In this document: piece after piece, positions 7,074-27,300 of the stretch
How positions within the stretch are numbered: position 1 is the stretch's first letter
Layout: every line of letters starts with the position of its first letter
Assembly (NCBI GenBank): GCA_964600985.1
Contig: CAZRJR010000001.1
Coordinates: 1 to 43,318, forward strand
DNA: 43,318 nt
Origin: an uncultured Candidatus Saccharibacteria bacterium
GTDB taxonomy: Bacteria > Patescibacteriota > Saccharimonadia > CAILAD01 > JADZBC01
Reading direction: 5' to 3'
Program-made: the position numbers and the translations under genes
Notes under the pieces: generated by a model
The model's database searches: none
What the model was told of the DNA's origin: nothing
What the model saw: the letters and a program-made list of their open reading frames with translations, nothing else

Positions 7074-7331
7074 GGAGGGTGCTGTTTCGAAGGGATTGAT
7101 GGCACAGCGTGGGCTCAGGCGGTGAAGTCGAAGACTGCTGCCGAAGTGCAACCCAAGCACAATGGCTGACAACGAGTTATGTGGTTGCCCCAAGTGCAGC
7201 TGCGTAACAGTCGAAGAGTGCCTCGATCCTCGCTCGCGGTGCGAGCATCATGGCGCGTGCCATCGTAGTGATGCGGTGCGTACCGCAGATCATTACGTGG
7301 CATTGGAAACGGTTGATCCGTTCACCCTCCA
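7074..7331 (+). ncRNA. Unclassified structured-RNA candidate with some tmRNA-like traits; class not established
   Basis: No SD-preceded ORF is present in any frame. An 8-bp end pairing joins GGAGGGTG (7074-7081) to CACCCTCC (7323-7330). Local hairpins lie at 7229-7245, 7250-7263 and 7273-7286. The 5' end TTTCGAAGGGATTGATGG resembles a tmRNA 5' region, and a short frame ends GCA GCT GCG TAA (7196-7207). Arguing against tmRNA, position 3 pairs A-U rather than G-U, and the T-arm-like hairpin has only a 5-nt loop. Confidence 0.25.
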
Positions 7332-7340
7332 GCCAGTCCA

Positions 7341-7406
7341 GGGGTGAGGCGCTCAAGGGCGCCTCACCCCTCCGGCCCCAGGATTTCCTGGGGTTCTTTG
7401 ATTCTT
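7341..7406 (+). terminator. Tandem intrinsic terminators
   Basis: A perfect 12-bp hairpin, GGGGTGAGGCGC-tcaagg-GCGCCTCACCCC, spans 7341-7370. It is followed by CCCCAGG-attt-CCTGGGG (7376-7393) and then TTCTTTGATTCTT. Confidence 0.65.
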
Positions 7407-7455
7407 GAAAATCCGTCATCTTAAGCTTATGCTTATAGCATAACTAGGAAGTACC

Positions 7456-8103
7456 ATGGTAACACAGAAGCCCAAAGAACCGATTACAAAAACCCAAGAG
7501 CAAGAGGGCCAGTCGAAGGGAGAGAACGTTGGCAAGATAGTTATCATTTCTCTTATAGTAACTTTGCTGGTGGTACTTCCGGCATTGGGCACATGGTATT
7601 GGCAATCAACAAATGCTAAGCGCGAACAGGCAGTTCTGCAAAAGAAAATCGACCAGCTTACGATGGACAAACAAGCCTTAGAGGAAGCTGCCAAGAAGAC
7701 TCAATCGGCTAAGGTTGCGGCGGCTCCAGTCTGCCCGAGCCTAACCAGCACCCAGATTAATAACATACATGCGGCTATAGAGAGCGGCAACACGGCTGCG
7801 CTGGATAGTCTTATGACCAGTTCAGTTAGCTTCGACGCTGCGGCCAGTGGCAAAACAGGTAGCGAAACCAAGGTCGCTGCCATAAGTGATCTCTCCAGCT
7901 TCTTGGTTGGCGTGAATGCGAGCTGGGACTGGAATATCACCTCGCCAACACTAGCCGCCTATAAGAATGGTAGCTATAAGCTGTACTTAGCCGACGACAC
8001 AATTTATGGTGCAAGCATCGACAAGCACTTTATAAGTATGCGTGTCACTTGTGGCAAAATTGACCAAATCTTTGTGGCTGCGAACACTGATTTACTGCCA
8101 TAG
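7456..8103 (+). CDS. Hypothetical membrane-anchored protein (N-terminal TM, coiled-coil stretch, C-terminal globular part)
   Basis: An AGGAAG SD lies upstream of the ATG. The TM helix is IVIISLIVTLLVVLPALGTWYW. No family was recognised. Confidence 0.55.
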   Translation: MVTQKPKEPITKTQEQEGQSKGENVGKIVIISLIVTLLVVLPALGTWYWQSTNAKREQAVLQKKIDQLTMDKQALEEAAKKTQSAKVAAAPVCPSLTSTQINNIHAAIESGNTAALDSLMTSSVSFDAAASGKTGSETKVAAISDLSSFLVGVNASWDWNITSPTLAAYKNGSYKLYLADDTIYGASIDKHFISMRVTCGKIDQIFVAANTDLLP

Positions 8104-8177
8104 TAGCGGTTGATTATCGCAGTTTACTTCTGGAATCCGCCATGATACGATGTAGGATAAGTAAGGAGTGAGGTGAA

Positions 8178-8354
8178 ATGGAAATTTTTGGACTTGGCAT
8201 GGGTGAACTAATTGTTATCGCCATCATACTCGTTCTACTTGTGGGTGCGAAAAAGCTACCTGAGCTTGGTCGAAGCATTGGTATGTTTGGTAGGGAAGTC
8301 AAAAAGGGTCTTGGCCCAGAGGATGACACAGATAAGAAAAAACAAGACAAGTAA
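8178..8354 (+). CDS. tatA: Sec-independent translocase subunit TatA/E (58 aa; too short for the supplied ORF track)
   Basis: Hand translation gives MEIFGLGMGELIVIAIILVLLVGAKKLPELGRSIGMFGREVKKGLGPEDDTDKKKQDK. An AAGGAGTGAGG SD lies upstream. The gene sits directly before tatC. Confidence 0.85.
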   Translation: MEIFGLGMGELIVIAIILVLLVGAKKLPELGRSIGMFGREVKKGLGPEDDTDKKKQDK

Positions 8355-8412
8355 TTGTCTGTAGGTATGGGCTAAGATTAGCCTATACAAAAAGAGGGTG
8401 GCAAAAGTCAGC

Positions 8413-9483
8413 ATGTCTAAGGCGGATAATGATATCAAGACTATACGGGAGCACTTAACTGAGCTTAGGAGTAGGTTGTTTTGGGTTGCGCTCGTATTCG
8501 GTATTGGTGCAGCCATTGGGTTTGTCGCGAACCACACCATTACTTCGTGGCTCATACGTCCACTCGGGCAATCACTATACTTTTCGACTCCATCTGGCGG
8601 CCTCGACTTTATTGTGTCGATTTCTTGTATTGTGGGCCTGGTGGTGGCGCTACCAATTATTATTTACCAAGTAGTAGAGTTTATTCGACCAGCTCATCCG
8701 GGCCTCCAAGACTTGCGTCCGTTCAGGATTGTGCTGTTGGCGAGTGTGTGTGCGGCCTCAGGCATAACCTATGCCTACTACTTTGGTATTCCGGCTGCTT
8801 TGCACTTTTTGATCAACTTTGCTGGCCAAGACGTGAAGCCACTCCTGAATGCTAGCTCGTACATGAACTTCGTGATCATGTATTTAGCGGGCGCTGCTTT
8901 GGTGTTTCAGATCCCACTTTTAATTGGCATTAGCAACAAGATCACGCCACTCAAGCCGGGTAGTCTGTCCAAGCTGCAACGGCCGGTAATACTCGGAGCA
9001 GTAATTGTAGCTGGAATTATTACTCCTACGCCAGATCCTGTAAACCAAATGCTCTTAGCACTACCGCTGATTGCATTGTTTGAGTGTACGGCTTTCTACT
9101 TCTGGCAAAAGCGGCTAAGTAGTGAGCGAAAGGCCCGTCGCAGAATGGCGAAACAAATCTCTCAGTCTCCTGAGCCAACATCGCCCTTGCCGAACATTGA
9201 GTTTAATCCTGCCCCTGCACAAACCTACGACCCACCGATAACTGTTGCTCCTGTGCGGCAGCCAGTTGTTGAGTCGTCATTACAGCCTGCTCCTGTAGAG
9301 ACGGTAGAATTTATACCGCCATCGTCCGATTCGATTCGTCGTGTGCGACCCAGTATACTGCGATTGGCCGAAGATACAGCGGCAAGTAATGCAGCTTACG
9401 AGAAACAAAAGCTGACGCAGTCAAGCCAACCAGAGAAAAGTGTTTTTTACGACGTCCGTCCTCCACTTCAGCCAGCCAGCTGA
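8413..9483 (+). CDS. tatC: Sec-independent translocase TatC with a long Pro-rich C-terminal extension
   Basis: The N-terminus REHLTELRSRLFWV and six TM segments are typical of TatC. The start is either ATG 8413 or GTG 8398. A tail of roughly 120 aa, rich in P/S/Q, follows the last TM. Confidence 0.85.
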   Translation: MSKADNDIKTIREHLTELRSRLFWVALVFGIGAAIGFVANHTITSWLIRPLGQSLYFSTPSGGLDFIVSISCIVGLVVALPIIIYQVVEFIRPAHPGLQDLRPFRIVLLASVCAASGITYAYYFGIPAALHFLINFAGQDVKPLLNASSYMNFVIMYLAGAALVFQIPLLIGISNKITPLKPGSLSKLQRPVILGAVIVAGIITPTPDPVNQMLLALPLIALFECTAFYFWQKRLSSERKARRRMAKQISQSPEPTSPLPNIEFNPAPAQTYDPPITVAPVRQPVVESSLQPAPVETVEFIPPSSDSIRRVRPSILRLAEDTAASNAAYEKQKLTQSSQPEKSVFYDVRPPLQPAS

Positions 9484-13770: not shown

Positions 13771-13797
13771 TTGGCACTCTTGACAGCCGAGTGCTAG
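13771..13797 (+). promoter_or_regulatory. CIRCE operator copy 1
   Basis: The sequence TTGGCACTC-N9-GAGTGCTAG compares with the consensus TTAGCACTC-N9-GAGTGCTAA. It overlaps the -35 box. Confidence 0.8.
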
Positions 13798-13809
13798 TTA
13801 TACTACAAT
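13780..13809 (+). promoter_or_regulatory. hrcA-dnaK operon promoter TTGACA-N18-TACAAT
   Basis: The hexamers lie at 13780-13785 and 13804-13809. Confidence 0.55.
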
Positions 13810-13816
13810 AAATACA

Positions 13817-13843
13817 TTAGCACTGGTTGCTAGCAAGTGCTAA
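13817..13843 (+). promoter_or_regulatory. CIRCE operator copy 2
   Basis: The sequence is TTAGCACTG-N9-AAGTGCTAA, located just downstream of the -10 box. Confidence 0.75.
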
Positions 13844-13878: not shown

Positions 13879-14592
13879 ATGGAACGTATTACTGAGCGAC
13901 AATTCGAAATCTTGAGCAAAATCGTGCAGCATTATGCCGGGACTGCCGAACCGGTTGGGTCACTGGCGCTGGCTGACTACTTTGAGCTTAGTCCGGCCAC
14001 TATTCGTGCCGAAATGGGTGCACTCGAGCAGGCTGGTTACATCTACCAACCACATATTTCGGCAGGTCGCGTACCAACCGATAGTGGGTATCGACTCTAT
14101 GTAAATAGTCTTGGTTCGAGTCATGAAAGACCGCAATCGCGTAGTGCCCAGACGATTTCGAAGCGCGTTACAAGTCTTAAGGATCGCACCGACGCAGCTA
14201 TTAAAATTGCTGCTGAAACACTTAGCGATCTAACTGGCAATACAGCCTTCGCTACCCTAAGTGATACTGTGTATTTCCACGGTTTGCACCAATTGTTTAG
14301 CCAACCGGAATTCATAGACCAGCTTCGCGCAGCTCAAGCTGCTCGCTACCTTGATCAAATGGGGGAATGGCTGTTTGGGCACCGCCTAGGCCAAGATCTG
14401 GATGTGTTCATAGGTAGTGAAAACCCATTCTTGCGTGGTAGTGGCATGACTATGGTCATAAGCCGATTCGAATCGCCCTATAGTGACAGTAGTTATATAG
14501 GTATTGTTGGCCCTACGCGTCAGAACTACGAGAAGGTAACAGGCCTGGTGCGTCTTACGGGCCAGAAGCTAGAGGAGGTATTAAATGGATAA
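13879..14592 (+). CDS. hrcA: Heat-inducible repressor HrcA (short form, 237 aa)
   Basis: The N-terminal winged helix is LTERQFEILSKIVQHYAGTAEPVGSLALA. It lies downstream of the CIRCE sites and upstream of grpE. The start was moved to ATG 13879 because the track's GTG 13837 falls inside CIRCE-2. Confidence 0.8.
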   Translation: MERITERQFEILSKIVQHYAGTAEPVGSLALADYFELSPATIRAEMGALEQAGYIYQPHISAGRVPTDSGYRLYVNSLGSSHERPQSRSAQTISKRVTSLKDRTDAAIKIAAETLSDLTGNTAFATLSDTVYFHGLHQLFSQPEFIDQLRAAQAARYLDQMGEWLFGHRLGQDLDVFIGSENPFLRGSGMTMVISRFESPYSDSSYIGIVGPTRQNYEKVTGLVRLTGQKLEEVLNG

Positions 14593-15130
14593 AACGGATA
14601 AGCCACGCAAGTCAGCTAAGGCGCCGAAGCAGAGCAAAAGGTCGAGCGCACAAGACTACGAGCAGCAAATTGGCGAGCTTACCCAGCACTTACAGCGCTT
14701 GCAAGCGGAGTTCGAGAATTACAAGAAGCGTACCGAAGCCGAGCGCGGGGAGCTTATGAACATGGCTAAGCTCTCGGTATTGACTGAGCTTTTGCCGGCG
14801 CTCGACAACTTTGATCGCGCAGCTACACACTTGCCGCCAGAGTTGCAAGATAACGCCTGGGCTAAGGGCATGAGTTACGTCGGTGCCCAGCTCGAGCAAA
14901 TCCTCGACGGCATGGGCGTACATAAGTACAGTGCACTAAATCAAGCTTTCGATCACAATCGCCACGAAGCCATGGAGTATGTGGAGGGAGCCGGACCGCC
15001 GGACGTGGTGGTCGAGGAGTTAACGCCGGGCTATGAGATTAACGGCAAAGTGGTACGCCCGGCTACTGTGAAGGTAAGTAAACCAATCAATGACGAGGCG
15101 AGTGAAGAACAGTTAAAGGAAGAGGAGTAA
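14585..15130 (+). CDS. grpE: Nucleotide exchange factor GrpE
   Basis: The motif [15 protein letters not shown] is present, along with a GrpE C-terminal beta domain. Operon position supports the call. Confidence 0.9.
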
Positions 15131-17039: not shown

Positions 17040-17516
17040 ATGAGAACGGCCGACTCGGTTGAGTTCAGGGAATTTCTAGACTTCGTAGGAAAGTCTGGCT
17101 ACGCTGACTCTAAAGCTCCCATAACTCAACTCGAGGATGGCTCACATAACCTCGTTCTCGAAAACAACGGATTTCGATTTCACGACAACTGGTTTGGTGG
17201 CGAACCGTATGGCGGACGAGAGGTAATATCTAAAGACGGTAAAGTATTCTGGATGATGGTTTACTATGGTGAGATTAAACAAGATGCGGGTACACCAGCC
17301 GAGGTATATGGAATTACCTTGAAAGAGGCTTTACGCCAACCAGATACCGAACTGCCTGTTCGGGGACCCAAAGTATTCAAGGCAAGTAATGGTTGTACCT
17401 ATAGTTTTGAGTGGACAGGTAATTTGGACAGGTTTACTGGTGAAGAAATGATTAAGGACCCCAAAGGCAAGGTTGTTTATACGGCCGAGATGAGCGGAGG
17501 GCTTGTAGATTTATGA
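17040..17516 (+). CDS. Conserved hypothetical protein, DUF5680-like (unverified)
   Basis: The ATG immediately follows the dnaK stop. The motif GFRFHDNWFGGEPYGGREVISKDGKVFWMMVYYG fits my recollection of that family. Confidence 0.5.
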   Translation: MRTADSVEFREFLDFVGKSGYADSKAPITQLEDGSHNLVLENNGFRFHDNWFGGEPYGGREVISKDGKVFWMMVYYGEIKQDAGTPAEVYGITLKEALRQPDTELPVRGPKVFKASNGCTYSFEWTGNLDRFTGEEMIKDPKGKVVYTAEMSGGLVDL

Positions 17517-18154
17517 AAACAGTAATCTTCATCGACGGCGAGAACATGATGCACCAGGTGCGCGATGTGCTATATAGGCGTCGCTTGATCCGCAATCGTG
17601 ACGAGCTGGTGGACTACGACATTCGAGCCCTCTTGGCTACTGCATTAGCAGACTTGGAAGACGTAGATATGCAGCGCGTACGAATTCGCTACTACTCTAC
17701 CAAGGTACACATAAGCGATCAGAGCAATTCATTGCGTGAGCGCACCGAAGCCATCGCGCGCTGGGGCGAAAAGCAGCGCGAACAGCTCGAAAAGCAACGA
17801 ATCGACTTTGTAGAAGCTGGCCATTTGCTCGTACGCGAAGGCAAGCGCTGTGTAGAGTGTGGCCATCGCGAGCCAGTGCTCATGGAAAAAGGCCTCGATG
17901 TACAGCTTGCAGTTGACCTTATACGCACCTCGGGTGAAAACGTACGACTCGTACTTCTAAGCTCAGATGGCGACCTTACTCCAGCCGTAGTAGAGGCGCG
18001 GCAGCGTGGATCCGAGATGGTGTATGTAGGCTTCCGTGGGGTGAGTAATGCTACACTTGGTCATGCGGCTGGTCAGCGCTTCACCATTAACGCCAAGCAA
18101 GTAGTTGCGGCTTACCAAAAAGGCTTAAAGCAGCGAGAGAACGAGAATGAATAA
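17513..18154 (+). CDS. NYN-domain (LabA/PIN-like) putative ribonuclease
   Basis: [21 protein letters not shown] and [12 protein letters not shown] are present. It overlaps the upstream stop with ATGA. Confidence 0.7.
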
Positions 18155-19116: not shown

Positions 19117-19617
19117 GTGCCCCACTTAAACCTAAGCTTTAATATGATGATACTCGCTAGTTTAGGCGCTGGCTTGGTGCTGGCATTCGTGGCTGGCGAG
19201 GGTAGAGTAAAGAAGCTAGCAACCGGGAGCTTGGTCGGGTTTTTGGTAGCTACGCAGTTAGGAGAGTTGGTGCACGCTCAGCTGGCCAAAGTAAGCTTTA
19301 TGCCAGATTGGAGCTTGGCTACGGTTCAGCTCGTACTATTTGCTGTAGGTACCTTACTCTTTAACTTGGGCAAGGTGCACCATGTGGAGGGGCGGCAACG
19401 AGTAAATGCTGTGTCAATTGCTGTGGCGGTTATTACCATGGCGTTTATATTTGCTTCTGTTTTAGGATTCTTGACCGACTCTACGCGCGCGAGGCTGCTG
19501 AACGACTACAACCTTGCCGCTATGCTCTACAACTGGCATTTGGTACTCTTAGGCCTCACCGCAGCAGGTCTCATAATCCTCGAGATCATGGGTGCGAACA
19601 CCAAGAAGCCTCGATAA
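19117..19617 (+). CDS. Hypothetical membrane protein
   Basis: It has 4-5 hydrophobic segments. The start is uncertain (GTG 19117 or ATG 19144). Confidence 0.45.
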   Translation: MPHLNLSFNMMILASLGAGLVLAFVAGEGRVKKLATGSLVGFLVATQLGELVHAQLAKVSFMPDWSLATVQLVLFAVGTLLFNLGKVHHVEGRQRVNAVSIAVAVITMAFIFASVLGFLTDSTRARLLNDYNLAAMLYNWHLVLLGLTAAGLIILEIMGANTKKPR

Positions 19618-19640: not shown

Positions 19641-19669
19641 TTGAACATAACCTCCTCATATTATATAAT
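19641..19669 (+). promoter_or_regulatory. Sigma70-like promoter TTGAAC-N17-TATAAT
   Basis: The hexamers lie at 19641-19646 and 19664-19669, in an AT-rich spacer ahead of the ATP-grasp block. Confidence 0.5.
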
Positions 19670-19704
19670 ATGTAATCTACGGGTGATTTAATAAGGATAG
19701 TAGT

Positions 19705-22008
19705 TTGGAAAATGAAGTTACAATAATCTCTAAAAAAGAATCAGGCTGGCACGTCGACCAGTTAATTCAGTCTGCCAACAAGTATGGCCTGAAGGCTAAT
19801 GTAATGAACTTTGAGAATGCCAATATGCTTAGAGGTGACTTGTCAGAGATTGGGGATATTGTTATTTGGAGGGCCTCTTCTTTAGACACTCAGTCAGAAA
19901 GAACCGCTGTGGGCACATTGCTTCGTGGTCGCCATCTAATTAACCGCACCATCTTCACCGCACCATATACGCCCTATAAATATTATCAGCAAATAGCGGC
20001 CTCTAAGCCCACTAAAATTAAAGACATACCGACCTATCGCTACAAGACATTGGCAGCTTTGGAAGCGGCTCTAAATGAGGGTGTATTAAGCTATCCGTTT
20101 ATTGCCAAGCCCAACCTTGGATCGCAGGGTAAGGGCGTGCTCCTAGTTGAGCAGGCGTCCCAACTTAATGAGCTTTCTGATAGGATGGAGAGCTATATCT
20201 TTCAGAATTTCATCAAGAACGATGGTGATTGGCGGGCAATTGTCGTAGGGGGTAGAGTTCTTGGAGTTATAAAAAGAAAGTCTAGTGGCGGAAGCCATCT
20301 TAATAACATATCTCAAGGTGGAACCGCTAGCTTGGAAACCGATCAAAAGGCATTACTTAAAATCTCAAAACTAGCGCTTTATGTGGCATCTTTTTTTGAC
20401 TATACCTACTGCGGCGTAGATATTATTCAAGATGCAGAGACGGGCAAATACTACTTTTTAGAGGTAAACTCTGCTCCTGAGTGGGATGGCGAACAAGGCT
20501 TTCAGGCAATCACTGGTGTTAACGTGGCGGATGAACTTATGCAGCATTGTGCGAGGTTGCTTACTCGAAGCTCTAAGCCAACTACAGAGCTTGTTCGGGA
20601 GTACTATGACGCCAATATTGATCGACTAATTGATAAGGACTTCCATTACTGTTCCAGGATGTATCTCTGGACCGGAGAACAAGAATACAAGCAAGTTCTA
20701 GATGAACTTCAACAAGATTACATTGGGCTGGACGGCGCTAGTACTAAAAAGATTGTAGAATCTATTATCATACCTAGAAAAGGTAGCTATACTACGCCGG
20801 ACGCAAATCGGCAGGAATATTTTAGCAAATATCCCAAGCTAAGAAGCTACAATAGTATTCTCTTTAAAGTGTTGTTCGCAGAAACGATTTATGGACGAGA
20901 CATTAGGCCGATTGTTCGTAAGTTGGTTCCAGATCAGGAGTTTATTGGGCTCTATAACGCTCTTAGGAATGACAAACGGGCTGTGATGGTATTATCAACT
21001 CACGCTATTAATTATTTCTATAACCTTGCTCACTACTTTAGCGGTATCAAGGGGTGTGAAGATCTTATTAATCTGGACCCTGATTATTATTTGCAATTGG
21101 CTCAGGGCTACGACCAAGATATGGATGGCATAGGTATCGATAGAGTAAGAAAATACCAGGTTTATTTACTGACACATGCGGTTATTGGTGCGTCCAAATT
21201 CTACTCGCGACGCGTAACGGGCTCGGTTTATGTGGAGATGATGCGACTAGGTGAGCAAGTAATTGAAGAGTCATACACTAAGGTTTCACTTGATAACAAG
21301 TTGGAGTATTTGGTTTGCGCTAAGCTCTGCGGCTATAAGTCTTCGTTAGAAACGCTTATTCTAGGAGAGGCAGCAGCCTCACTGTCCTACACCGGAAATT
21401 TCATTATCGATACTCTTAACGAAACCAGAACATCCATGAGCACGAGCAATAATATATGCACATCGGAGCACCGCAACGTCCTGTACTTAATGGCCACTCG
21501 GCCCTATATAGGCAGCAGCCAGGAGCCTCAGCCAAACATATTGCCACAGGTAGGCTCTTTAACGAAGTCTGGTTTCGATCTGACCGAGATTGGGAGAAAA
21601 GCCTTCATTAATATACCCGATGCTGGGCTACAAGAAGTGTTGGTTCGTGTAGACACAGGGGCATATTATAGTACTATCGATGCTCACGATATTCGTGTAA
21701 TCTCGGACAAGGAAGGGCAGTCTAAACAGCTCTCATTTACCATTAGAGGGTCTTCTAAGCCAATCATCACTTCGGAATTTAAGCAGGTGAATGTTAGAAG
21801 TACTACTGGAGAACAAGACAAACGTTATATAGTGATGTTAACGATTGAACACCAGGGGGTGGCTTACAAGACGGCCTTTAGCTTAGCCGATCGATCCATG
21901 ATGCGGTTCTCGGGCTTACTTGGCAGAAGGTTTCTAAAAAGAGGCTTCTTGGTCAATCCAGCTAAAAATATCATTAACAGCACCAAGCATAAGGGAGAAG
22001 GCGTATGA
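19705..22008 (+). CDS. Fusion protein: RimK-like ATP-grasp ligase + unknown middle region + RimB/PF05618-like retropepsin-type (DTGA) domain
   Basis: An AAGGA SD lies 8 nt before the TTG start. ATP-grasp motifs are KPNLGSQGKGV, QNFI, DWRAIVVGGRVLG, NISQGGTA and YFLEVNSAPE. The C-terminus has VRVDTGAYYS...LLGRRFLKRGFLVNP (nt 21589-22008). Confidence 0.7.
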   Translation: MENEVTIISKKESGWHVDQLIQSANKYGLKANVMNFENANMLRGDLSEIGDIVIWRASSLDTQSERTAVGTLLRGRHLINRTIFTAPYTPYKYYQQIAASKPTKIKDIPTYRYKTLAALEAALNEGVLSYPFIAKPNLGSQGKGVLLVEQASQLNELSDRMESYIFQNFIKNDGDWRAIVVGGRVLGVIKRKSSGGSHLNNISQGGTASLETDQKALLKISKLALYVASFFDYTYCGVDIIQDAETGKYYFLEVNSAPEWDGEQGFQAITGVNVADELMQHCARLLTRSSKPTTELVREYYDANIDRLIDKDFHYCSRMYLWTGEQEYKQVLDELQQDYIGLDGASTKKIVESIIIPRKGSYTTPDANRQEYFSKYPKLRSYNSILFKVLFAETIYGRDIRPIVRKLVPDQEFIGLYNALRNDKRAVMVLSTHAINYFYNLAHYFSGIKGCEDLINLDPDYYLQLAQGYDQDMDGIGIDRVRKYQVYLLTHAVIGASKFYSRRVTGSVYVEMMRLGEQVIEESYTKVSLDNKLEYLVCAKLCGYKSSLETLILGEAAASLSYTGNFIIDTLNETRTSMSTSNNICTSEHRNVLYLMATRPYIGSSQEPQPNILPQVGSLTKSGFDLTEIGRKAFINIPDAGLQEVLVRVDTGAYYSTIDAHDIRVISDKEGQSKQLSFTIRGSSKPIITSEFKQVNVRSTTGEQDKRYIVMLTIEHQGVAYKTAFSLADRSMMRFSGLLGRRFLKRGFLVNPAKNIINSTKHKGEGV

Positions 22009-22910
22009 AGATAGCAGTGTTATCAATCGGACCTGGTAACTATACTACCAAACGGCTCATGGAAGCTATTGAGCAGCGTGGCCATGAGGGGGTGCGCATT
22101 AGTTATAAAGAGGCCTATATGAAGATCGAGTCCAATCATACAAGCGTGCACGCTGACGGCTCGATGGTACAAGACGTGAATGCAATCATTCCACGAATCG
22201 CGGCTTCTTATACATCATATGGTGCGGCGGTGGTACGGCAGTTTGAAATGGGTCGTGTGTATAGCTCAGTATCTTCCCTCGCGCTGGTCCGATCACGGGA
22301 TAAGTTACGTAGCATGCAATTACTAGCTCGTGCTGGTATTGGTATTCCAAAGACGGTGTTCGCAAATGCCGCAACCGATTCTGATAGTCTTTTAGAATTA
22401 ATAGGTGGCTCACCGGCAGTTGTTAAGCTTGTTTCCAGCACGCATGGCAAAGGAGTAGTGTTGGCTGAAACTAAGAAAGCAGCTAAATCGGTGATCGAAG
22501 CCTTTAACTCCCTGGGTGCAAACTTTATTGTCCAAGAATTTATCGAGGAGGCTAATGGGGCTGACATCAGGGCTATAGTGGTGGGAGACAAGGTGGTTGG
22601 GGCTATGTTGCGCCAGGGGGCCGATGGCGAGTTTAGAAGTAATTTGCATCGTGGTGGTAGCTCGTCGCCGGTTGAGCTTACGCGCAAAGAACAGAACCTA
22701 GCAGTTAAGGCGGCTAAAACCCTTGGCCTGGCTATAGCGGGGGTGGATATTCTGCGTTCCAAGCGCGGCCCACTTATTTTGGAGGTTAATTCTTCACCAG
22801 GAATCCAAGGAACAGAGCGTGAAACCGGCTTTGACGTAGCTGGTGCCATGATTGACTTCGTGGTAGAGAAGGCTGGTGGTAAGAGGCGCAAAGATCGTAT
22901 TGGTGCTTAA
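22005..22910 (+). CDS. rimK: RimK-family alpha-L-glutamate ligase (ATP-grasp)
   Basis: It encodes 301 aa. Motifs are VVKLVSSTHGKGVVL, VQEFIEEANGADIRAIVVG, RSNLHRGG and ILEVNSSPG. It overlaps the upstream stop with ATGA. Confidence 0.85.
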   Translation: MKIAVLSIGPGNYTTKRLMEAIEQRGHEGVRISYKEAYMKIESNHTSVHADGSMVQDVNAIIPRIAASYTSYGAAVVRQFEMGRVYSSVSSLALVRSRDKLRSMQLLARAGIGIPKTVFANAATDSDSLLELIGGSPAVVKLVSSTHGKGVVLAETKKAAKSVIEAFNSLGANFIVQEFIEEANGADIRAIVVGDKVVGAMLRQGADGEFRSNLHRGGSSSPVELTRKEQNLAVKAAKTLGLAIAGVDILRSKRGPLILEVNSSPGIQGTERETGFDVAGAMIDFVVEKAGGKRRKDRIGA

Positions 22911-22921
22911 ATAATAAGAAG

Positions 22922-22950
22922 TTTACTGCTCTTAGCATAAGTACTATGAT
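22922..22950 (+). promoter_or_regulatory. Promoter TTTACT-N17-TATGAT, 6 nt before ATG 22957 (leaderless layout)
   Basis: The hexamers lie at 22922-22927 and 22945-22950. No SD is present. Confidence 0.45.
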
Positions 22951-22956
22951 GTATTT

Positions 22957-24147
22957 ATGACAGAGCCCAATTATGATGCTAGTTCAATACTGAGTTTTTC
23001 AGACAAGAATACTGACAAATCAATCAAGGGCGAAGGTTATCGTAGGGTTGTTGAAGAACTTGAGGGTCAAGGGGTGGAGCCGCTGGTGACACGGGGCCAG
23101 CTTGAACAGCACGACATAGAGAGTGGCTTAGTACAACCCGGAGTATTAAGAGTGGTTGAGATGGATGGCGAAAGAAGGCTTACCACGGAACCTCTATCTG
23201 TCGATAGAGAGCTGGGAGCCACTTCTGTACGGGCTTATTACTCTAAGCTTGCAGAAGGCGTTGAGCTTACTGGAGCCCATGTTATTAACACCGTTCGTGT
23301 TCGGGAGTTGGACAAAAAGACGGAAGCTTACCGGCTCATTCATCAGTATCAGCCAGGGACACAGTTGGTCCAGCCAAATGCATTTGGTGAGCAAGTGGCG
23401 ACTATGCGCACAGACAGAGTGGTACTCAAGCCCGTCAAAAGTGCTGATAGTAGAGGGCTTGTTATTCTGACAAAAGATGACTTGTATGATCCTACTAAGT
23501 TTGCTCTCAGCCACGATGAAGATGGTGGCTTGTCGCTCATTGGGCTTGATGGCTCACTTACTATAGATTTAACTGCAGGCGAGGGCTACCTTTTGCAGGA
23601 GATGATTGATACTACCAAACCGTATCCGTCGGGTATCAAAATCATTTCCGCTTGCCAGCAAGAATATGAAGCAAAAAAACAGTACCCAAAGGAAGTGCGC
23701 CTTATGGTCTATTGGGACAAAACGCGTGCTGATAAGCAACTCATAATACCTTATGGACGCATATTTACTCCACTTACAGGAGAAAGCGTTCGCACGAAGG
23801 CCAATCACGACGACGATTGGTTGCTACTGGATATTCAAAACGGCCTCCCTCATGATTTAGATGGCCTAGCTGCCGATGTAGTGGCTAGGATACTGGATTA
23901 CGGGCACGTAGATTACCTGCATGGTGCAATTGACGTCGCCTGGGATGGCAATAGGTGGTACGTAATGGAGCTCAATATGTGGTTTCCGGCGCCTCCATCT
24001 TATAAGCTTGCTGAATCACACGGGGTAGTGGAGCTAGCCGATATCCATCGCAGGGAGATGGCTAGTTTATTGGCCAATAGCGCCAAAGATGCCAAAGCAA
24101 AGCATGGTCAGATGCCTCAATACCCAGATTTAAATGTAGAGCATTAA
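22957..24147 (+). CDS. Divergent ATP-grasp-like protein (396 aa)
   Basis: VVLKPVKSADSRGLVI, YLLQEMID, VRLMVYWD and DVAWDGNRWYVMELNMWFP occur in the expected ATP-grasp order. Confidence 0.55.
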   Translation: MTEPNYDASSILSFSDKNTDKSIKGEGYRRVVEELEGQGVEPLVTRGQLEQHDIESGLVQPGVLRVVEMDGERRLTTEPLSVDRELGATSVRAYYSKLAEGVELTGAHVINTVRVRELDKKTEAYRLIHQYQPGTQLVQPNAFGEQVATMRTDRVVLKPVKSADSRGLVILTKDDLYDPTKFALSHDEDGGLSLIGLDGSLTIDLTAGEGYLLQEMIDTTKPYPSGIKIISACQQEYEAKKQYPKEVRLMVYWDKTRADKQLIIPYGRIFTPLTGESVRTKANHDDDWLLLDIQNGLPHDLDGLAADVVARILDYGHVDYLHGAIDVAWDGNRWYVMELNMWFPAPPSYKLAESHGVVELADIHRREMASLLANSAKDAKAKHGQMPQYPDLNVEH

Positions 24148-24208: not shown

Positions 24209-24285
24209 GGGCCTGTAGCTCAGCTGGTTAGAGCACCTGCCTTTTAAGCAGGGTGTCATGGGTTCGAGTCCCATCAGGCCCTCCA
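24209..24285 (+). tRNA. tRNA-Lys (anticodon TTT), CCA encoded
   Basis: The cloverleaf reads GGGCCTG/TA/GCTC-AGCTGGTTA-GAGC/A/CCTGC-CTTTTAA-GCAGG/GTGTC/ATGGG-TTCGAGT-CCCAT/CAGGCCC/T/CCA. Confidence 0.95.
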
Positions 24286-24293
24286 ATGAAAGT

Positions 24294-24316
24294 GCCTCGC
24301 GTTAGTGAGGCTTTTT
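24294..24316 (+). terminator. Intrinsic terminator after tRNA-Lys
   Basis: The hairpin GCCTC-gcgttagt-GAGGC is followed by TTTTT. Confidence 0.6.
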
Positions 24317-24345
24317 CATTGGACGAGTGAACTCAAGCCCATGAC

Positions 24346-24456
24346 GTAGCTGCAAAGCAGGTGCCAGTCATGAGTTCGATAACAACGAACGCGCGCAGGA
24401 ATGTATTTCGAGCACGTGAGGAAGTTATACACTTAGTAGTCCCATCGGGCCCTCCA
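24346..24456 (+). pseudogene. Decayed partial copy of tRNA-Lys (interrupted)
   Basis: AAGCAGGTGCCAGTCATGAGTTCGA (24355-24379) matches the anticodon-stem/T-arm region of the tRNA. GTCCCATCGGGCCCTCCA (24439-24456) matches the tRNA 3' end (24268-24285) at 17/18 positions. About 60 nt of unrelated sequence lies between the two pieces. Confidence 0.6.
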
Positions 24457-24470
24457 TTCCTGACTCCTTT

Positions 24471-24492
24471 AAGACGCGAAAGCGTCTTTTTG
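24471..24492 (+). terminator. Intrinsic terminator
   Basis: The hairpin AAGACGC-gaaa-GCGTCTT is followed by TTTG. Confidence 0.6.
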
Positions 24493-24505
24493 TTATACTT
24501 AAGCC

Positions 24506-25051
24506 ATGAAGTCGAGAAGAGAAAATAATTCTGGGTGGCTTTGGCTTGCTTTACTGATTGTTGCAATTGTAATTACAGGCATCAGTTATTTAGCTTTCTG
24601 GCCAAAGAGTAAAAAAAGTCAAACAGCTGCTAATAAAGATACCAAATTAGAACAGCCCTCGGCTCAACCCGAAGTAAAAGCCAATGAGGCTCCTACAGGA
24701 ACTGTTATTAAGACTGGCAATAGTCAATATGGCCCGATGCTTTTTGATAGCAGGGGACAGGCGATATACATCTGGCAGTTAGAAGATTCATCAACGGCTG
24801 AATGTTATGGCAACTGTGCCGAAGAATGGCCGCCCGTACTTACCAATGGTACACCAATTGCAGCCGGCGATGTAAAGAGTGAATTACTTGCAACTACCAC
24901 GCGCACCGATGGTGCTACTCAGGTGACCTATAATGGCCATCCGCTATACTTTTATGCGCACGAAGGAGTGGGTCAAGTCGAGTGTCATAATGTCAAAACG
25001 CACGGCGGTTTGTGGTGGGTAATTCAACCAAATGGTATGCGCGCACCGTGA
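24506..25051 (+). CDS. Secreted/lipoprotein, COG4315-type (PF03640 'secreted repeat') family
   Basis: It has an N-terminal TM/signal segment. Two repeats are present: YGPMLFDSRGQAIYIWQLED...CYGNCAEEWPP and ATQVTYNGHPLYFYAHEG. An extended -10 (TGTTATACT) ends 6 nt before the ATG. Confidence 0.7.
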   Translation: MKSRRENNSGWLWLALLIVAIVITGISYLAFWPKSKKSQTAANKDTKLEQPSAQPEVKANEAPTGTVIKTGNSQYGPMLFDSRGQAIYIWQLEDSSTAECYGNCAEEWPPVLTNGTPIAAGDVKSELLATTTRTDGATQVTYNGHPLYFYAHEGVGQVECHNVKTHGGLWWVIQPNGMRAP

Positions 25052-25175
25052 TAGTGGGCTATCGATAGAGCCTATCGGCACGAAGGTAGCTTCACCGCAG
25101 CTCATGGTGGTCATCTATATCCCCTTTACTTAAAGACTCCTTCTCGGGAGACCTTATGGTTGGTATGATTAAGCA

Positions 25176-25823
25176 ATGAATGCGAACTACAAAAAAGCAT
25201 TACAAGAGCTCAATAAGACAGTAGATGGGGTTGGGCTGGGTGTAGATTCCGGCATTAAACACAGTGTAGCTGCCTTTAATTCGGTTGGCTTTAAAACCTC
25301 TGCTTCTTGCGAAGGCCACACTGATCACGGCCATCCATTTCCGTGGGTTGATTTTGGTACGAGTGATTTTGCAGGCGAACTAGAGCAGCCGCCAGCTTTT
25401 CTAGGATCTTTTGTGGCAGACCTTCATCAGTTCACTATAGACCACGATATAGAAGCAGACTTTGGGCTCCATGCATACATAGATAAGGATGATAAACGAT
25501 ACGTTATTGTGTCCGGGTCGGATGGCCATAGGCGACTTTATTTGGAGGATGTAAGTAAGAATGCCGCCGAACTAATTGAGCAAGTAAACAAAACTCAGGC
25601 CGAGAAGATGCTGGGCATACTACAAGAATTCTACGCCAGCAACCCCACTCCTTATGGCCCAATGCTATCAATGCAGTTTCGGGCTGACTATATGTTTCGA
25701 TTGCAGCCTAATGATGCCGAAGTTATGGCGGGCTTACCGGCATCAAAAAGAACACAGAAGCACACAGAATATCTCGATCACTTTAATAAACTTGCAGATT
25801 ATTTACTAGTAAAGTTTTCGTAA
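25176..25823 (+). CDS. Hypothetical protein (215 aa), CEGHTDHGH motif
   Basis: This is a clean ORF. An extended -10 (TGGTATGAT) ends 6 nt before the ATG. No family was recognised. Confidence 0.5.
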   Translation: MNANYKKALQELNKTVDGVGLGVDSGIKHSVAAFNSVGFKTSASCEGHTDHGHPFPWVDFGTSDFAGELEQPPAFLGSFVADLHQFTIDHDIEADFGLHAYIDKDDKRYVIVSGSDGHRRLYLEDVSKNAAELIEQVNKTQAEKMLGILQEFYASNPTPYGPMLSMQFRADYMFRLQPNDAEVMAGLPASKRTQKHTEYLDHFNKLADYLLVKFS

Positions 25824-25900
25824 CTTTCACAGGGGCCCTCTAAGTTAAGAGCTCGACTTCGTGCCAGGCTTTTACTTGGCAAGTTTGGTATACTCAAATC

Positions 25901-26326
25901 ATGAAGAACCAATGGCGATATAGTCATACCGAAACCACTAAGGCCGAACCTGCTGCTATTTGGCAACGCTGGACTAATGTGGCCGGCTGGCCGAAGGAAG
26001 ACCAGAATCTTGAGAAGGCTGAACTGGTTGGTGAGTTTAAAGTAGGTAATACGATCGCAATCAAGCCTAAGGGCTCACCAAAGTCCAGAGTAGTTATTAC
26101 TGAAGTTACGCCAAATCAATCATTTGCGACCCAGGGTAGCATTCCACTTGGTAAACTCATCGTTGCTCACAAGGTAGAGAAAGGTGGAGCGCAAACAAAC
26201 TTTACCCACACCATTACTGTGACGGGTCCATTACGCAAGTTGTTTGTGAAGATGGTGGTACAAAAGTTGGCTAATGATTTACCCCAGAAGATGCAAAACA
26301 TTGCTCGCCTAGCTGAAGAACTATGA
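25901..26326 (+). CDS. SRPBCC (START/polyketide-cyclase-like) family protein
   Basis: It encodes 141 aa. AEPAAIWQRWTNVAGWPKE is typical of SRPBCC N-termini. An extended -10 (TGGTATACT) ends 6 nt before the ATG. Confidence 0.6.
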   Translation: MKNQWRYSHTETTKAEPAAIWQRWTNVAGWPKEDQNLEKAELVGEFKVGNTIAIKPKGSPKSRVVITEVTPNQSFATQGSIPLGKLIVAHKVEKGGAQTNFTHTITVTGPLRKLFVKMVVQKLANDLPQKMQNIARLAEEL

Positions 26327-27207
26327 ATGGTGTAGTTCGGCATGAAGCGCCATTTAGTTTGCGTAATCAAAACAACTTCTTTGGCGGTTGGCCCGTGGTT
26401 ACAGACATCCCTCATACTTACGCTGTTGCAATTACTTTCCCTGTCGAGGGTTGGCAGAATTCGGCCGCCGTGGTGGTATCGGAACAGAATGGTACACTGA
26501 GTACCGAGGTGTATGGCACAAAGGAGTCAGAAAAAGCTATTTCTCAGACTCTAGCAACGTTATCACTCGACGTTAATGATAGTGGTTGGCAAGAGGTAGG
26601 TAAACGAGACACGGTAATCGCTAATTTGCAAAACAAGTATGGCTACTTACGGCCAATCTTGTTCCACTCGCCCTATGAGGCCGCGGCTGGATTCATTATT
26701 GGTCAGCGCATCTCTGTAAAGCAGCGCCAGGCCATACAGGCCAAAATGGCCGACCAATTGGGGCAAAAGATTATATTGAATGGTGCTGAATACGCTGCCT
26801 TCCCATCCCCGCAAGTACTCTTAGAGCTCAGCGAGTTTCAGGGTTTGAGCGAGGTTAAAGTTCGGCGACTCAAAGGCATTGCGCAAGCTGCTTTGGATGG
26901 CCGGCTAGATCGCAAAAAACTTTTGAGTATGTCGGTAAGCGATGCATTGGAGAGCTTACAATCGTACGATGGCATCGGTCCATTCTGCGCTAGTGGTATT
27001 CTCTACCGTGGTGCTGGGATAGTAGACAATATTACGGACGATGATCTTACCAAATACGCCGTCAAGCACGCTTATGGTTTAGATTTTAGACCGTCACAAA
27101 AGCAGGTTCTGGAGATTGCTGAATTGTGGAGGCCATACAGGATGTGGTGTGAGGTACTGCTACATGTGTGGATGCGCCGAGAGGTTGGTGTGCCAAAACG
27201 GCACTAA
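26323..27207 (+). CDS. HhH-GPD DNA glycosylase, AlkA-like
   Basis: The helix-hairpin-helix LQSYDGIGPFCASGILYRGAG is followed by acidic residues. The size and the N-terminal AlkA_N-like part fit. It overlaps the upstream stop with ATGA. Confidence 0.65.
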   Translation: MNGVVRHEAPFSLRNQNNFFGGWPVVTDIPHTYAVAITFPVEGWQNSAAVVVSEQNGTLSTEVYGTKESEKAISQTLATLSLDVNDSGWQEVGKRDTVIANLQNKYGYLRPILFHSPYEAAAGFIIGQRISVKQRQAIQAKMADQLGQKIILNGAEYAAFPSPQVLLELSEFQGLSEVKVRRLKGIAQAALDGRLDRKKLLSMSVSDALESLQSYDGIGPFCASGILYRGAGIVDNITDDDLTKYAVKHAYGLDFRPSQKQVLEIAELWRPYRMWCEVLLHVWMRREVGVPKRH

Positions 27208-27300
27208 GGTTCCCGAGGTTTACACGAGACTAACTACCATGCAAGTTGTTAGTTACCCTCATGCTTGCAGCCTTGATCCGGCCAGCGGTATTCTGGGTGC

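What the first reader, a model, noticed from the sequence alone, without database searches (positions are those of the whole stretch)
19641..24147. Block of three ATP-grasp ligases, the first fused to a DTGA retropepsin-like (RimB/PF05618-type) domain
Seen in sequence: the 767-aa product of 19705-22008 starts with about 290 aa carrying RimK-type ATP-grasp motifs. About 330 aa follow in which I recognise no motif. The last ~140 aa (nt 21589-22008) read VRVDTGAYYS...LLGRRFLKRGFLVNP, the signature of the so-called ATP-dependent zinc protease / RimB family. Its stop overlaps (ATGA) a canonical 301-aa RimK. A third, very divergent ATP-grasp-like gene starts 46 nt after that, from its own promoter in a leaderless layout. 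Established knowledge: RimK adds poly-Glu tails to ribosomal protein S6, and in Pseudomonas a separate RimB protease trims them; stand-alone RimK plus PF05618 pairs are common. Inference: a covalent ligase-protease fusion plus two more ligases looks like a self-contained system that writes and trims peptide tails, or makes a short poly-amino-acid. It does not look like a plain rimK locus. Two spot-counted 60-nt lines of the block have 23 and 30 G+C, against 30 in a dnaK line. The block also abuts a tRNA-Lys carrying an integration-like scar, so it may have been acquired.
Basis: partly seen in the sequence, partly recalled or inferred. Interest (0 to 1): 0.7.

Follow-up and report, generated by a model that had tools for sequence, protein, structure and literature searches.

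The report
Expanded RimK/RimB ligase–protease gene cluster
Three adjacent genes in a probable Saccharibacteria genome encode a standard RimK glutamate ligase, a 767-residue fusion of a second ligase, an uncharacterised helical domain and a RimB-type protease, and a third very divergent ligase; together they form a larger, lineage-wide version of a known system that adds and trims glutamate tails.

Summary
ORF 19705-22008 (767 aa) has three domains: a RimK/LysX-family ATP-grasp (aa 1-290), a conserved all-alpha domain I call MID (aa 286-605), and a PF05618 retropepsin-like domain with DTGA (aa 636-759). Its stop overlaps (ATGA) a canonical RimK, which is 56% identical to P. aeruginosa RimK. The 396-aa product 46 nt downstream matches no profile but is predicted to have an ATP-grasp fold. 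The fusion is real. The identical protein occurs on two other assemblies, and about 40 full-length homologues exist.

Not in the finding: the same parts (second ATP-grasp, MID, RimB, RimK) are separate neighbouring genes in most Saccharimonadia. They are fused in other combinations across Patescibacteria. 43 of 46 species loci that carry MID also have a PF05618 domain within 5 kb. MID has no match among solved structures and only sub-threshold similarity to DUF3541.

The "acquired island" idea fails. The order hrcA-grpE-dnaK-dnaJ-cluster-tRNA-Lys-comEC-yebC is collinear across the class, the tRNA scar lies on the far side of the tRNA, and the low GC is intrinsic to the gene.

Best reading: an expanded RimK/RimB-type system that writes and trims glutamate tails. 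The roles of MID and the extra ligases, and the target (RpsF?), were not determined. This is a new variant of a known kind, of moderate interest.

The parts
19641..19669 (+). Promoter-like site (TTGAAC-17-TATAAT) upstream of the cluster; an AAGGA ribosome-binding site lies at 19693-19697
   Evidence: 10 of 12 matches. The number of such sites in the region equals the shuffle expectation, so this is only suggestive. The AAGGA was read.
19705..22008 (+). 767-aa tri-domain gene: ATP-grasp2, MID and a RimB-like retropepsin domain
   Evidence: Homologue N-termini support the TTG start (consensus).
19705..20574 (+). Domain 1 (aa 1-290): RimK/LysX-family ATP-grasp ligase (ATP-grasp2), distinct from canonical RimK
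   Evidence: PF08443 E 3e-20; TIGR00768 104 bits, below its cut-off. About 40 bits to ArgX 3vpb and to RimK structures. Lys, Asp, Glu and Asn of the KPN..GS.G, CGVDII and LEVN motifs are at least 90% conserved.
20560..21519 (+). Domain 2 (aa 286-605): MID, a conserved all-alpha domain of unknown function, distantly DUF3541-like
   Evidence: AlphaFold2 pLDDT 90, about 17 helices. No fold neighbour in PDB or BFVD and no PDB sequence hit. DUF3541 matched below threshold in 30 of 40 members. 637 representative clusters at 50% identity in the 1.84-billion-protein library. Invariant H314, R318, R369, H491, Y500, D530, K532, E534, E588, H589, R590.
21520..21609 (+). Flexible linker (aa 606-635) between MID and the protease domain
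   Evidence: pLDDT below 50 for residues 329-347 of the model. Poorly conserved.
21610..21981 (+). Domain 3 (aa 636-759): PF05618 retropepsin-like aspartic peptidase (RimB/RloA type); catalytic DTGA at nt 21652-21663 (D650)
   Evidence: PF05618 45 bits, above its cut-off of 27. RimB NF052261 43 bits, below its cut-off of 200. Aligns to RloA structures 9g59 and 9g58 with DTGA on DTGA. D[TS]GA is invariant in 23 fusion homologues.
22005..22910 (+). Canonical rimK (301 aa); its start overlaps the stop of the fusion gene (ATGA)
   Evidence: NF007764 345 bits, above its cut-off of 331. 333 bits and 56% identity to P. aeruginosa RimK 7qyr; 303 bits to E. coli RimK.
22922..22950 (+). Promoter-like site (TTTACT-17-TATGAT) ending 6 nt before the ATG of the third gene
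   Evidence: 9 of 12 matches, not above chance for the region.
22957..24147 (+). 396-aa orphan ATP-grasp ligase (ORPH)
   Evidence: No Pfam or NCBIfam hit. Only 12 homologue clusters among 5.8 billion proteins. AlphaFold2 pLDDT 86; Foldseek probability 1.0 to GshB, Ddl, PPIP5K2, RimK, PsnB and ArgX. Invariant K158, Q214-E215, R248, D326, E338, N340.

Best explanation
The block is an expanded, cytoplasmic RimK/RimB-type system that writes and trims peptide tails. It has been inherited vertically in Saccharimonadia.

Shown:
- The genes encode a canonical RimK alpha-L-glutamate ligase and a RimB-type retropepsin domain with an intact catalytic DTGA.
- They also encode two further ATP-grasp ligases whose Mg/ATP residues are intact.
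- The ordered pair of RimB followed by RimK, with overlapping stop and start, is kept whether RimB is free or fused.

Inferred from Pseudomonas RimABK biochemistry:
- RimK adds alpha-linked glutamates to a protein C-terminus (RpsF by default) or makes free poly-alpha-glutamate.
- The RimB domain must dimerise to form its active site. It cuts those tails back and stimulates RimK.

Inferred from the repeated, independent fusions: the second ligase and MID work in the same complex. Either they add or prime a residue on the same substrate, or MID recognises the acceptor or regulates the ligases. In the window they are tethered to the protease, so one 767-aa dimer plus RimK would carry the writer, eraser and accessory functions. 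The orphan third ligase is a clade-specific add-on, probably adding a further residue.
For: - Domain and fold assignments.
- Catalytic motifs are conserved.
- Census of 80 species-level Patescibacteria loci found with the MID profile: 43 of 46 loci with enough flanking sequence have a PF05618 domain within 5 kb, 40 of 46 have at least two ATP-grasp genes, and 29 of 46 have a canonical RimK.
- The components occur in several arrangements: ATP-grasp2-MID-RimB (window type, about 10 loci); separate ATP-grasp2, MID, RimB and RimK genes (about 40 Saccharimonadales loci); ATP-grasp2-MID (about 590 aa); ATP-grasp-RimB without MID (L004, L029); RimB-RimK (L043, L060, L063, L067).
- The four-nucleotide RimB-stop/RimK-start overlap is seen in the window and in many relatives.
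- Biochemistry of RimK, RimB and the RimBK hybrid: PMC11957791.
- Collinear synteny next to the dnaK operon.
Against: - No rpsF gene is in the window or in any fetched locus, so the acceptor C-terminus was not checked.
- The D. psychrophila RimBK hybrid did not glutamylate RpsF in vitro (PMC11957791).
- ATP-grasp2 and the RimB-like domain score far below the NCBIfam equivalog cut-offs, so their specificities may differ from RimK and RimB.
- Moranbacteria-type clusters keep ATP-grasp2-MID but replace RimK/RimB. They carry an RloC-like-PF05618 fusion and an ATP-grasp resembling the G domain of cyanophycin synthetase. This fits polymer or peptide synthesis at least as well as ribosome modification.
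- MID has no known function.
- rimK and the PF05618 gene are non-essential in Southlakia epibionticum co-culture (PMC10633639 supplement).
- There are no experimental data for any of these proteins.
Confidence: 0.55

Rival explanations
1. The cluster is a ribosome-independent multi-ligase pathway that builds a free short peptide or poly-amino-acid. Candidate roles for the product are storage, osmolyte or cell-envelope polymer. Each ATP-grasp adds one kind of residue. The retropepsin domain sizes or recycles the product. MID is a second catalytic or primer-binding domain.
For: - Three to four different ATP-grasp ligases occur per cluster.
- The Moranbacteria version has an ATP-grasp like the cyanophycin synthetase G domain (TIGR02068, 177 bits) and an RloC-like ligase instead of RimK.
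- RimK itself makes free poly-alpha-Glu, and RimB stimulates this (PMC11957791).
- MID has invariant His, Asp, Glu, Arg and Lys residues, as an active site would.
Against: - The window RimK passes the equivalog cut-off for S6--glutamate ligase and is 56% identical to Pseudomonas RimK.
- No exporter, cell-wall gene or amidotransferase lies in the cluster.
- No product is known.
Confidence: 0.27
2. The block is an ordinary set of rimK paralogues that happen to lie side by side. The ligases act on unrelated substrates, as MptN and CofF do on cofactors, and the fusion has no functional meaning.
For: - ATP-grasp2 scores about as well against MptN (101 bits) and LysX (81 bits) as against rimK_fam.
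- RimK homologues with cofactor roles exist in archaea (cited in PMC11957791).
Against: - Independent fusions of the same parts in several combinations, and 93% co-occurrence of MID with PF05618, argue for functional coupling.
- From general knowledge, methanopterin and F420 pathways are not expected in Patescibacteria.
- No LysW-like carrier gene lies in the cluster.
Confidence: 0.08
3. The block is a recently acquired island that integrated at tRNA-Lys.
For: - The fusion gene has GC 43.4% against 48.9% for the window.
- tRNA-Lys is adjacent, and its last 19 nt are repeated.
Against: - The same cluster lies in the same place, between dnaJ and tRNA-Lys/comEC/yebC, in distant relatives.
- The repeat is 3' of the tRNA, bordering a different window-specific 3-kb segment.
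- The GC dip is shared by the orthologous genes in 13 relatives.
- No integrase or mobile-element gene is present, and there is no PADLOC hit.
Confidence: 0.03

Closest known systems
RimABK module of Pseudomonas (RimK ligase, RimB retropepsin-like protease, RimA EAL phosphodiesterase); PMC11957791, PMC7343187
   Same: A canonical RimK (56% identical to P. aeruginosa RimK). A PF05618 DTG protease is encoded immediately upstream of rimK, with translational coupling. The system is cytoplasmic.
   Different: There is no RimA. The protease is the C-terminal domain of a 767-aa protein that also carries a second ATP-grasp and the MID domain. A third ATP-grasp gene follows. The protease domain scores only 43 bits on the RimB equivalog model (cut-off 200).
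RimBK hybrid (Desulfotalea psychrophila DP2392; Flavobacteriales, Rhodobacterales); PMC11957791
   Same: A RimB-type protease is covalently fused to an ATP-grasp ligase. True RimB-RimK hybrids also occur in related Saccharimonadales loci (L043, L060, L063, L067).
   Different: In RimBK the protease is N-terminal and is fused directly to canonical RimK (about 470 aa). Here the protease is C-terminal, the fused ligase is a different RimK/LysX-family paralogue, a 320-aa domain intervenes, and canonical RimK remains a separate gene.
RloABC operon of P. aeruginosa (secreted retropepsin RloA, 7TM inactive transglutaminase RloB, ATP-grasp RloC); PMC12239564
   Same: A PF05618 protease is paired with an ATP-grasp ligase plus a third component of unknown role. 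The window protease domain aligns to RloA crystal structures (9g59, 9g58). Moranbacteria relatives of the cluster carry an RloC-like (TIGR02291)-PF05618 fusion.
   Different: The protease has no signal peptide and is internal to a cytoplasmic fusion. There is no RloB-like transglutaminase or 7TM protein. The window ligases are not of the ATPgrasp_ST/RloC type.
LysX/ArgX-LysW amino-group carrier protein ligases
   Same: The best solved-structure hit for ATP-grasp2 is ArgX (3vpb, 41 bits). It belongs to the same RimK/LysX superfamily, whose members acylate a protein C-terminal carboxylate.
   Different: There is no LysW-like carrier and no lysine or arginine biosynthesis gene nearby. TIGR02144 scores 81 bits against a cut-off of 276.
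DUF3541 (PF12060)
   Same: 30 of 40 MID sequences give a sub-threshold match to the C-terminal half of the model (best E 3e-6).
   Different: All matches are below the gathering score (window: 17 bits against 28.2). DUF3541 itself is uncharacterised, and no paper mentions it.

Membership tests
RimK (30S ribosomal protein S6--L-glutamate ligase, NF007764) | Rimk_N pre-ATP-grasp plus RimK ATP-grasp domains; score above the equivalog cut-off | tested here: met
   For the 301-aa product: PF18030 E 2e-30, PF08443 E 5e-64, NF007764 345.3 bits against a cut-off of 331. 56% identity to 7qyr.
RimK (30S ribosomal protein S6--L-glutamate ligase, NF007764) | An RpsF acceptor ending in Glu-Glu in the same genome | not testable with these tools
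   rpsF is absent from the window and from all 87 fetched loci.
RimK (30S ribosomal protein S6--L-glutamate ligase, NF007764) | The same criteria applied to the N-terminal ATP-grasp of the 767-aa protein | tested here: not met
   NF007764 41 bits against 331; TIGR00768 104 bits against 143; no Rimk_N hit. It belongs to the RimK/LysX superfamily but is not RimK.
RimB / PF05618 retropepsin-like aspartic peptidase | PF05618 domain above the gathering score, with the catalytic D-T/S-G motif | tested here: met
   45.1 bits against 27. DTGA at aa 650-653. The motif is invariant in 23 fusion homologues. DTGA aligns with DTGA of RloA 9g59.
RimB / PF05618 retropepsin-like aspartic peptidase | Equivalog-level similarity to RimB (NF052261) | tested here: not met
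   43.5 bits against a cut-off of 200; RloA3 41 bits against 210.
RimB / PF05618 retropepsin-like aspartic peptidase | Encoded directly upstream of rimK and co-transcribed with it | tested here: met
   ATGA overlap at 22005-22008. The same order and overlap are seen in relatives with free RimB.
RimB / PF05618 retropepsin-like aspartic peptidase | Cleaves poly-Glu tails; active as a homodimer | not testable with these tools
   Biochemistry is known only for the Pseudomonas and Desulfotalea enzymes (PMC11957791).
RimBK hybrid | One polypeptide with an N-terminal RimB domain fused directly to canonical RimK | tested here: not met
   The window protein has the order ATP-grasp2, MID, RimB, and RimK is a separate gene. 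True RimBK is present in L043 (RimB aa 3-136, RimK aa 169-459).
RloABC system | Secreted RloA, an RloB (7TM plus inactive transglutaminase), and an RloC ATPgrasp_ST ligase | tested here: not met
   None of the three window proteins is an RloC-type ligase: ATPgrasp_ST (PF14397) is below its cut-off in the fusion (15.2 bits against 31.4), reaches 45 bits in the canonical RimK only as a secondary match far below its RimK hit (215.8 bits), and is absent from the orphan. The upstream 166-aa membrane protein has no Pfam hit. The protease domain is internal to the protein.
DUF3541 (PF12060) | Score above the Pfam gathering threshold | tested here: inconclusive
   Window MID scores 17 bits against 28.2. 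30 of 40 family members give weak hits to the same region of the model, best E 3.4e-6.
ATP-grasp superfamily (for the 396-aa product) | Three-domain ATP-grasp fold with the Lys, Gln-Glu hinge and Asp/Glu/Asn Mg ligands | tested here: met
   Foldseek probability 1.0, E 5e-10 to 1e-8 against GshB, Ddl, RimK, ArgX and PsnB. Invariant K158, Q214, E215, D326, E338, N340. Sequence-profile methods alone fail.
LysX/ArgX-LysW carrier system | A LysW-type carrier protein and biosynthetic neighbours | tested here: not met
   There is no small carrier ORF and no lys or arg gene in the cluster. TIGR02144 scores 81 bits against 276.

The most novel reading that the evidence does not exclude
ATP-grasp2 plus MID is the constant core of a previously undescribed machine found across Patescibacteria. 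It would write peptide tails or synthesise a poly-amino-acid. Interchangeable ligase-retropepsin pairs plug into this core: RimK/RimB in Saccharimonadia, and RloC-like/RloA-like plus a cyanophycin-synthetase-like ligase in Moranbacteria and Parcubacteria. MID would be a new enzyme or acceptor-recognition fold, and the target or product would be specific to these ultrasmall episymbionts rather than the classical RpsF tail.
Probability: 0.3. Interest if true: 0.75.

Novelty: new variant of a known kind. Interest (0 to 1): 0.55.

Why it matters
RimK/RimB is one of the few known bacterial systems that remodel the proteome by reversibly modifying a ribosomal protein, and it has been studied only in Proteobacteria. 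This locus shows that Patescibacteria, whose genomes are under 1 Mb, keep a larger version of it at a fixed position next to the chaperone operon. Their version adds a second (and sometimes third or fourth) ligase and a conserved domain that has no solved-structure relative and no literature. The repeated fusions identify which proteins to test together, and they give the uncharacterised MID/DUF3541-like family a first functional context. If the target is not RpsF, the system would point to a new post-translational modification or polymer in these episymbionts.

Tried and rejected
- Sequence searches for the 396-aa protein against Pfam, NCBIfam and PDB, and a profile-profile comparison with the ATP-grasp family, gave nothing significant. 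Only the predicted fold identified it.
- MID has no PDB sequence hit apart from a spurious spidroin match, no Foldseek hit in PDB or BFVD and no NCBIfam hit.
- I considered GrpE as an alternative acceptor because the window GrpE ends in KEEE. I rejected this because relatives' GrpE lack an acidic end.
- I considered MID as its own acceptor and rejected it because MID C-termini are not acidic.
- No run of four or more Glu occurs in any window ORF.
- The defence-system check found no PADLOC hit.
- Rfam found only the three tRNAs.
- CIRCE operators lie only upstream of hrcA (13771-13797 and 13817-13843), not before the cluster.
- A jackhmmer attempt to define a 'third ATP-grasp' orthologue group drifted into generic RimK-like hits and was abandoned.
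- PMC3268129 (Iyer et al. 2009, on amidoligases) is not held in the library.

Full report
**1. Observation**

The first stop and second start share ATGA, and the second gap is 46 nt.

Pfam and NCBIfam show the following.
- The 767-aa protein has a RimK-type ATP-grasp domain. PF08443 gives E 3e-20; TIGR00768 covers aa 9-281 at 104 bits, below its cut-off.
- The same protein has a PF05618 domain at aa 636-759 (45 bits, cut-off 27). VRVDTGAYYS is at aa 647-656.
- The 301-aa protein is a canonical RimK: NF007764 at 345 bits (cut-off 331), 333 bits and 56% identity to P. aeruginosa RimK 7qyr, and 303 bits to E. coli RimK.
- The 396-aa protein matches no profile in Pfam, NCBIfam or PDB sequences. 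Its alignment with 12 homologues shows ATP-grasp-like invariant residues K158, Q214-E215, R248, D326, E338 and N340. Its AlphaFold2 model (pLDDT 86) matches GshB, Ddl, PPIP5K2, RimK, ArgX and PsnB with Foldseek probability 1.0 and E down to 5e-10.

**2. The fusion is real**

The identical 767-aa protein, followed by the same RimK and 396-aa genes, is on two independent read-set assemblies. About 40 clusters of full-length homologues (740-790 aa, 37-46% identical) carry the same three parts. Most are labelled Saccharibacteria. D-[TS]-G-A and the LLGR motif are invariant in the 23 fusion C-termini aligned. The protease domain aligns DTGA-to-DTGA with the RloA crystal structures 9g59 and 9g58.

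**3. The middle 330 aa are a discrete domain (MID)**

- More than 80 further homologues of about 590 aa have ATP-grasp plus the middle region but no PF05618.
- An AlphaFold2 model of aa 286-642 is confident (pLDDT 90, pTM 0.86) and all-alpha with about 17 helices. It is followed by a disordered linker.
- Foldseek finds nothing in PDB (best E 0.15, TM no higher than 0.35) or in BFVD. A profile search of PDB sequences and NCBIfam also find nothing.
- Pfam DUF3541 is hit below threshold by 30 of 40 members, best E 3e-6. No paper mentions DUF3541.
- Invariant residues in protein numbering are H314, R318, R369, H491, Y500, D530, K532, E534, E588, H589 and R590. This pattern looks more like a binding or catalytic pocket than a spacer.
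- An exhaustive profile search of 1.84 billion representatives finds 637 clusters at E no greater than 1e-3 and 332 at E no greater than 1e-30. They occur as stand-alone proteins of about 310 aa, ATP-grasp-MID of about 590 aa, and tri-domain proteins of about 760 aa. Named members are all 'hypothetical'.

**4. Gene neighbourhoods**

A scan of one genome per GTDB species with the MID profile returned 80 loci. All are Patescibacteria by title, apart from a few with evidently placeholder names. I called ORFs and scored them with HMMs built from the window family and with Pfam and NCBIfam. Three layouts recur.

- **Layout A, the window type.** [ATP-grasp2-MID-RimB] followed by RimK, in about 10 loci. 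The 396-aa orphan follows only in the window's own small clade (L001, L002, L004, L033, L035). An extra ATP-grasp2 paralogue sometimes lies upstream.
- **Layout B, about 40 Saccharimonadales loci.** The same parts are separate genes in the same order: ATP-grasp2 (about 300 aa), MID (about 310 aa, on the opposite strand), RimB (about 160 aa) and RimK. The RimB stop overlaps the RimK start. In L043, L060, L063 and L067, RimB and RimK are fused, which is the published RimBK architecture.
- **Layout C, Moranbacteria, Parcubacteria and Minisyncoccota.** An RloC-like (TIGR02291, 292 bits)-PF05618 fusion of about 467 aa, a 313-aa ATP-grasp resembling the cyanophycin synthetase G domain (177 bits), and ATP-grasp2-MID (about 590 aa).

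L004 and L029 carry ATP-grasp-RimB fusions without MID.

Of 46 loci with at least 3.5 kb on both sides of MID, 43 have a PF05618 domain within 5 kb, 40 have at least two ATP-grasp genes and 29 have a canonical RimK. Independent fusions of the same partners in different combinations are classic evidence that the proteins act together.

**5. Not an acquired island**

In the window and in relatives whose proteins are only 30-50% identical, the order is hrcA-grpE-dnaK-(NYN)-dnaJ-(small membrane protein)-cluster-tRNA-Lys-comEC-yebC-ruvCAB.
- The tRNA-Lys is itself conserved at that spot.
- The 19-nt repeat of its 3' end (24267-24285 and 24438-24456, 18/19 identical) lies downstream. It borders a window-specific segment of about 3 kb (24286-27300) that relatives lack.
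- The fusion gene's lower GC (43.4% against 48.9%) is seen for the orthologous genes in all 13 relatives examined. It is therefore a property of the genes.
- No integrase, defence-system hit or Rfam element is present.
- CIRCE operators precede only hrcA.
- A 10/12 promoter-like site precedes the cluster and a 9/12 site ends 6 nt before the third ATG. However, the number of such sites equals the shuffle expectation.

**6. Mechanism**

Established knowledge (PMC11957791, PMC7343187, PMC12239564):
- RimK adds alpha-linked Glu to the C-terminus of RpsF and makes free poly-alpha-Glu.
- RimB is a homodimeric retropepsin-like endopeptidase. It cuts poly-Glu tails and stimulates RimK.
- A RimB-RimK hybrid is proteolytically active.

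Shown here: the window encodes a near-canonical RimK, translationally coupled to a RimB-type domain with an intact catalytic Asp, plus two more ligases with intact Mg/ATP ligands.

Inferred:
- The 767-aa protein dimerises through its protease domain and docks on RimK.
- RimK writes Glu tails or polymer, and the protease trims them.
- ATP-grasp2-MID acts on the same substrate by priming, capping or recognising the acceptor, or it regulates the pair.

I put this at about 0.55. The main rival, at about 0.27, is a ribosome-independent multi-ligase pathway that makes a peptide or poly-amino-acid. It is favoured by layout C, which lacks RimK but keeps ATP-grasp2-MID, and by the fact that RimBK failed to glutamylate RpsF in vitro.

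The RpsF acceptor could not be checked, because no rpsF is in the window or in any locus. In Southlakia epibionticum, which has only rimK plus the PF05618 gene next to dnaJ, both are non-essential in co-culture (PMC10633639 supplement).

**7. Comparison and novelty**

The 301-aa protein is a RimK. The C-terminal domain is a member of PF05618 but not an equivalog of RimB (43 bits against a cut-off of 200). The 767-aa architecture is not the published RimBK: the domain order is reversed, the partner ligase is different, and there is an extra domain. Nor is it the Rlo system: there is no signal peptide, no RloB and no RloC-type ligase.

It works like a Rim module but is a new variant of one. The new elements are the MID domain, the second and third ligases, and their conservation across the phylum. 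I found no paper linking RimK to Saccharibacteria or Patescibacteria.

Interest is moderate at 0.55. The domain calls are solid, and the conserved, repeatedly fused module gives an uncharacterised family a functional context. However, the core chemistry is probably that of a known system, and the function of the new parts remains unknown.

Noticed in passing
window 24209-27300: The last 19 nt of tRNA-Lys(UUU) (24267-24285) recur 18/19 at 24438-24456. Each copy is followed by a terminator-like hairpin (24294-24311 and 24471-24488). Relatives L001 and L002 run from tRNA-Lys straight into comEC. The window instead has about 3 kb of extra genes there: a Lipoprotein_15-repeat protein, a 215-aa orphan, an SRPBCC protein and an HhH-GPD-like protein. 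L004 has a different gene at that position. This looks like a variable integration spot at the tRNA 3' end, with no integrase left.
   Followed up: partly
window 17040-18154: A DUF5680 gene (17040-17516) and a NYN-domain gene (17513-18154) sit between dnaK and dnaJ inside the heat-shock operon. The NYN gene is conserved there in L001, L004, L008 and L033. The DUF5680 gene was seen only in the window.
   Followed up: partly
window 13771-13843: Two CIRCE-like inverted repeats (13771-13797 and 13817-13843, 2 mismatches each; 0.02 expected by chance) lie just upstream of and overlapping the hrcA start. None precedes the ATP-grasp cluster.
   Followed up: yes
window 14585-15130: GrpE ends in ...SEEQLKEEE. 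It is the only window ORF with an acidic Glu-Glu C-terminus of the kind RimK extends. GrpE of 24 related loci lacks this tail, so it is probably incidental.
   Followed up: yes
window 19117-19617: A 166-aa multi-pass membrane protein with no Pfam family lies between dnaJ and the cluster. It is conserved at that position in the closest relatives (L001, L004, L008, L033, L035). Southlakia has a large DUF2339 membrane protein at the equivalent place. A possible link to the cluster was not examined.
   Followed up: no
L015:4799-7150 and similar loci (L011, L013, L016, L023-L028, L078): Moranbacteria and Parcubacteria versions of the cluster encode an RloC-like (TIGR02291) ligase fused to a PF05618 protease. 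Next to it is a 313-aa ATP-grasp resembling the G domain of cyanophycin synthetase, upstream of ATP-grasp2-MID.
   Followed up: partly
L043:6525-7931, L060, L063, L067: These Saccharimonadales loci carry true RimB-RimK (RimBK) hybrids of about 470 aa. That extends this published architecture beyond Flavobacteriales, Rhodobacterales and Desulfotalea.
   Followed up: partly
L055 (Gracilibacteria) 7311-8774: Only short ORF fragments of ATP-grasp2 and MID are called under genetic code 11, probably because UGA is read as an amino acid in this lineage. Several MAGs titled 'Bdellovibrionales' or 'Pseudomonadales' (L011, L016, L024, L032, L034, L049, L052, L061) carry the Patescibacteria-type cluster, so their titles look like misassignments.
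   Followed up: no
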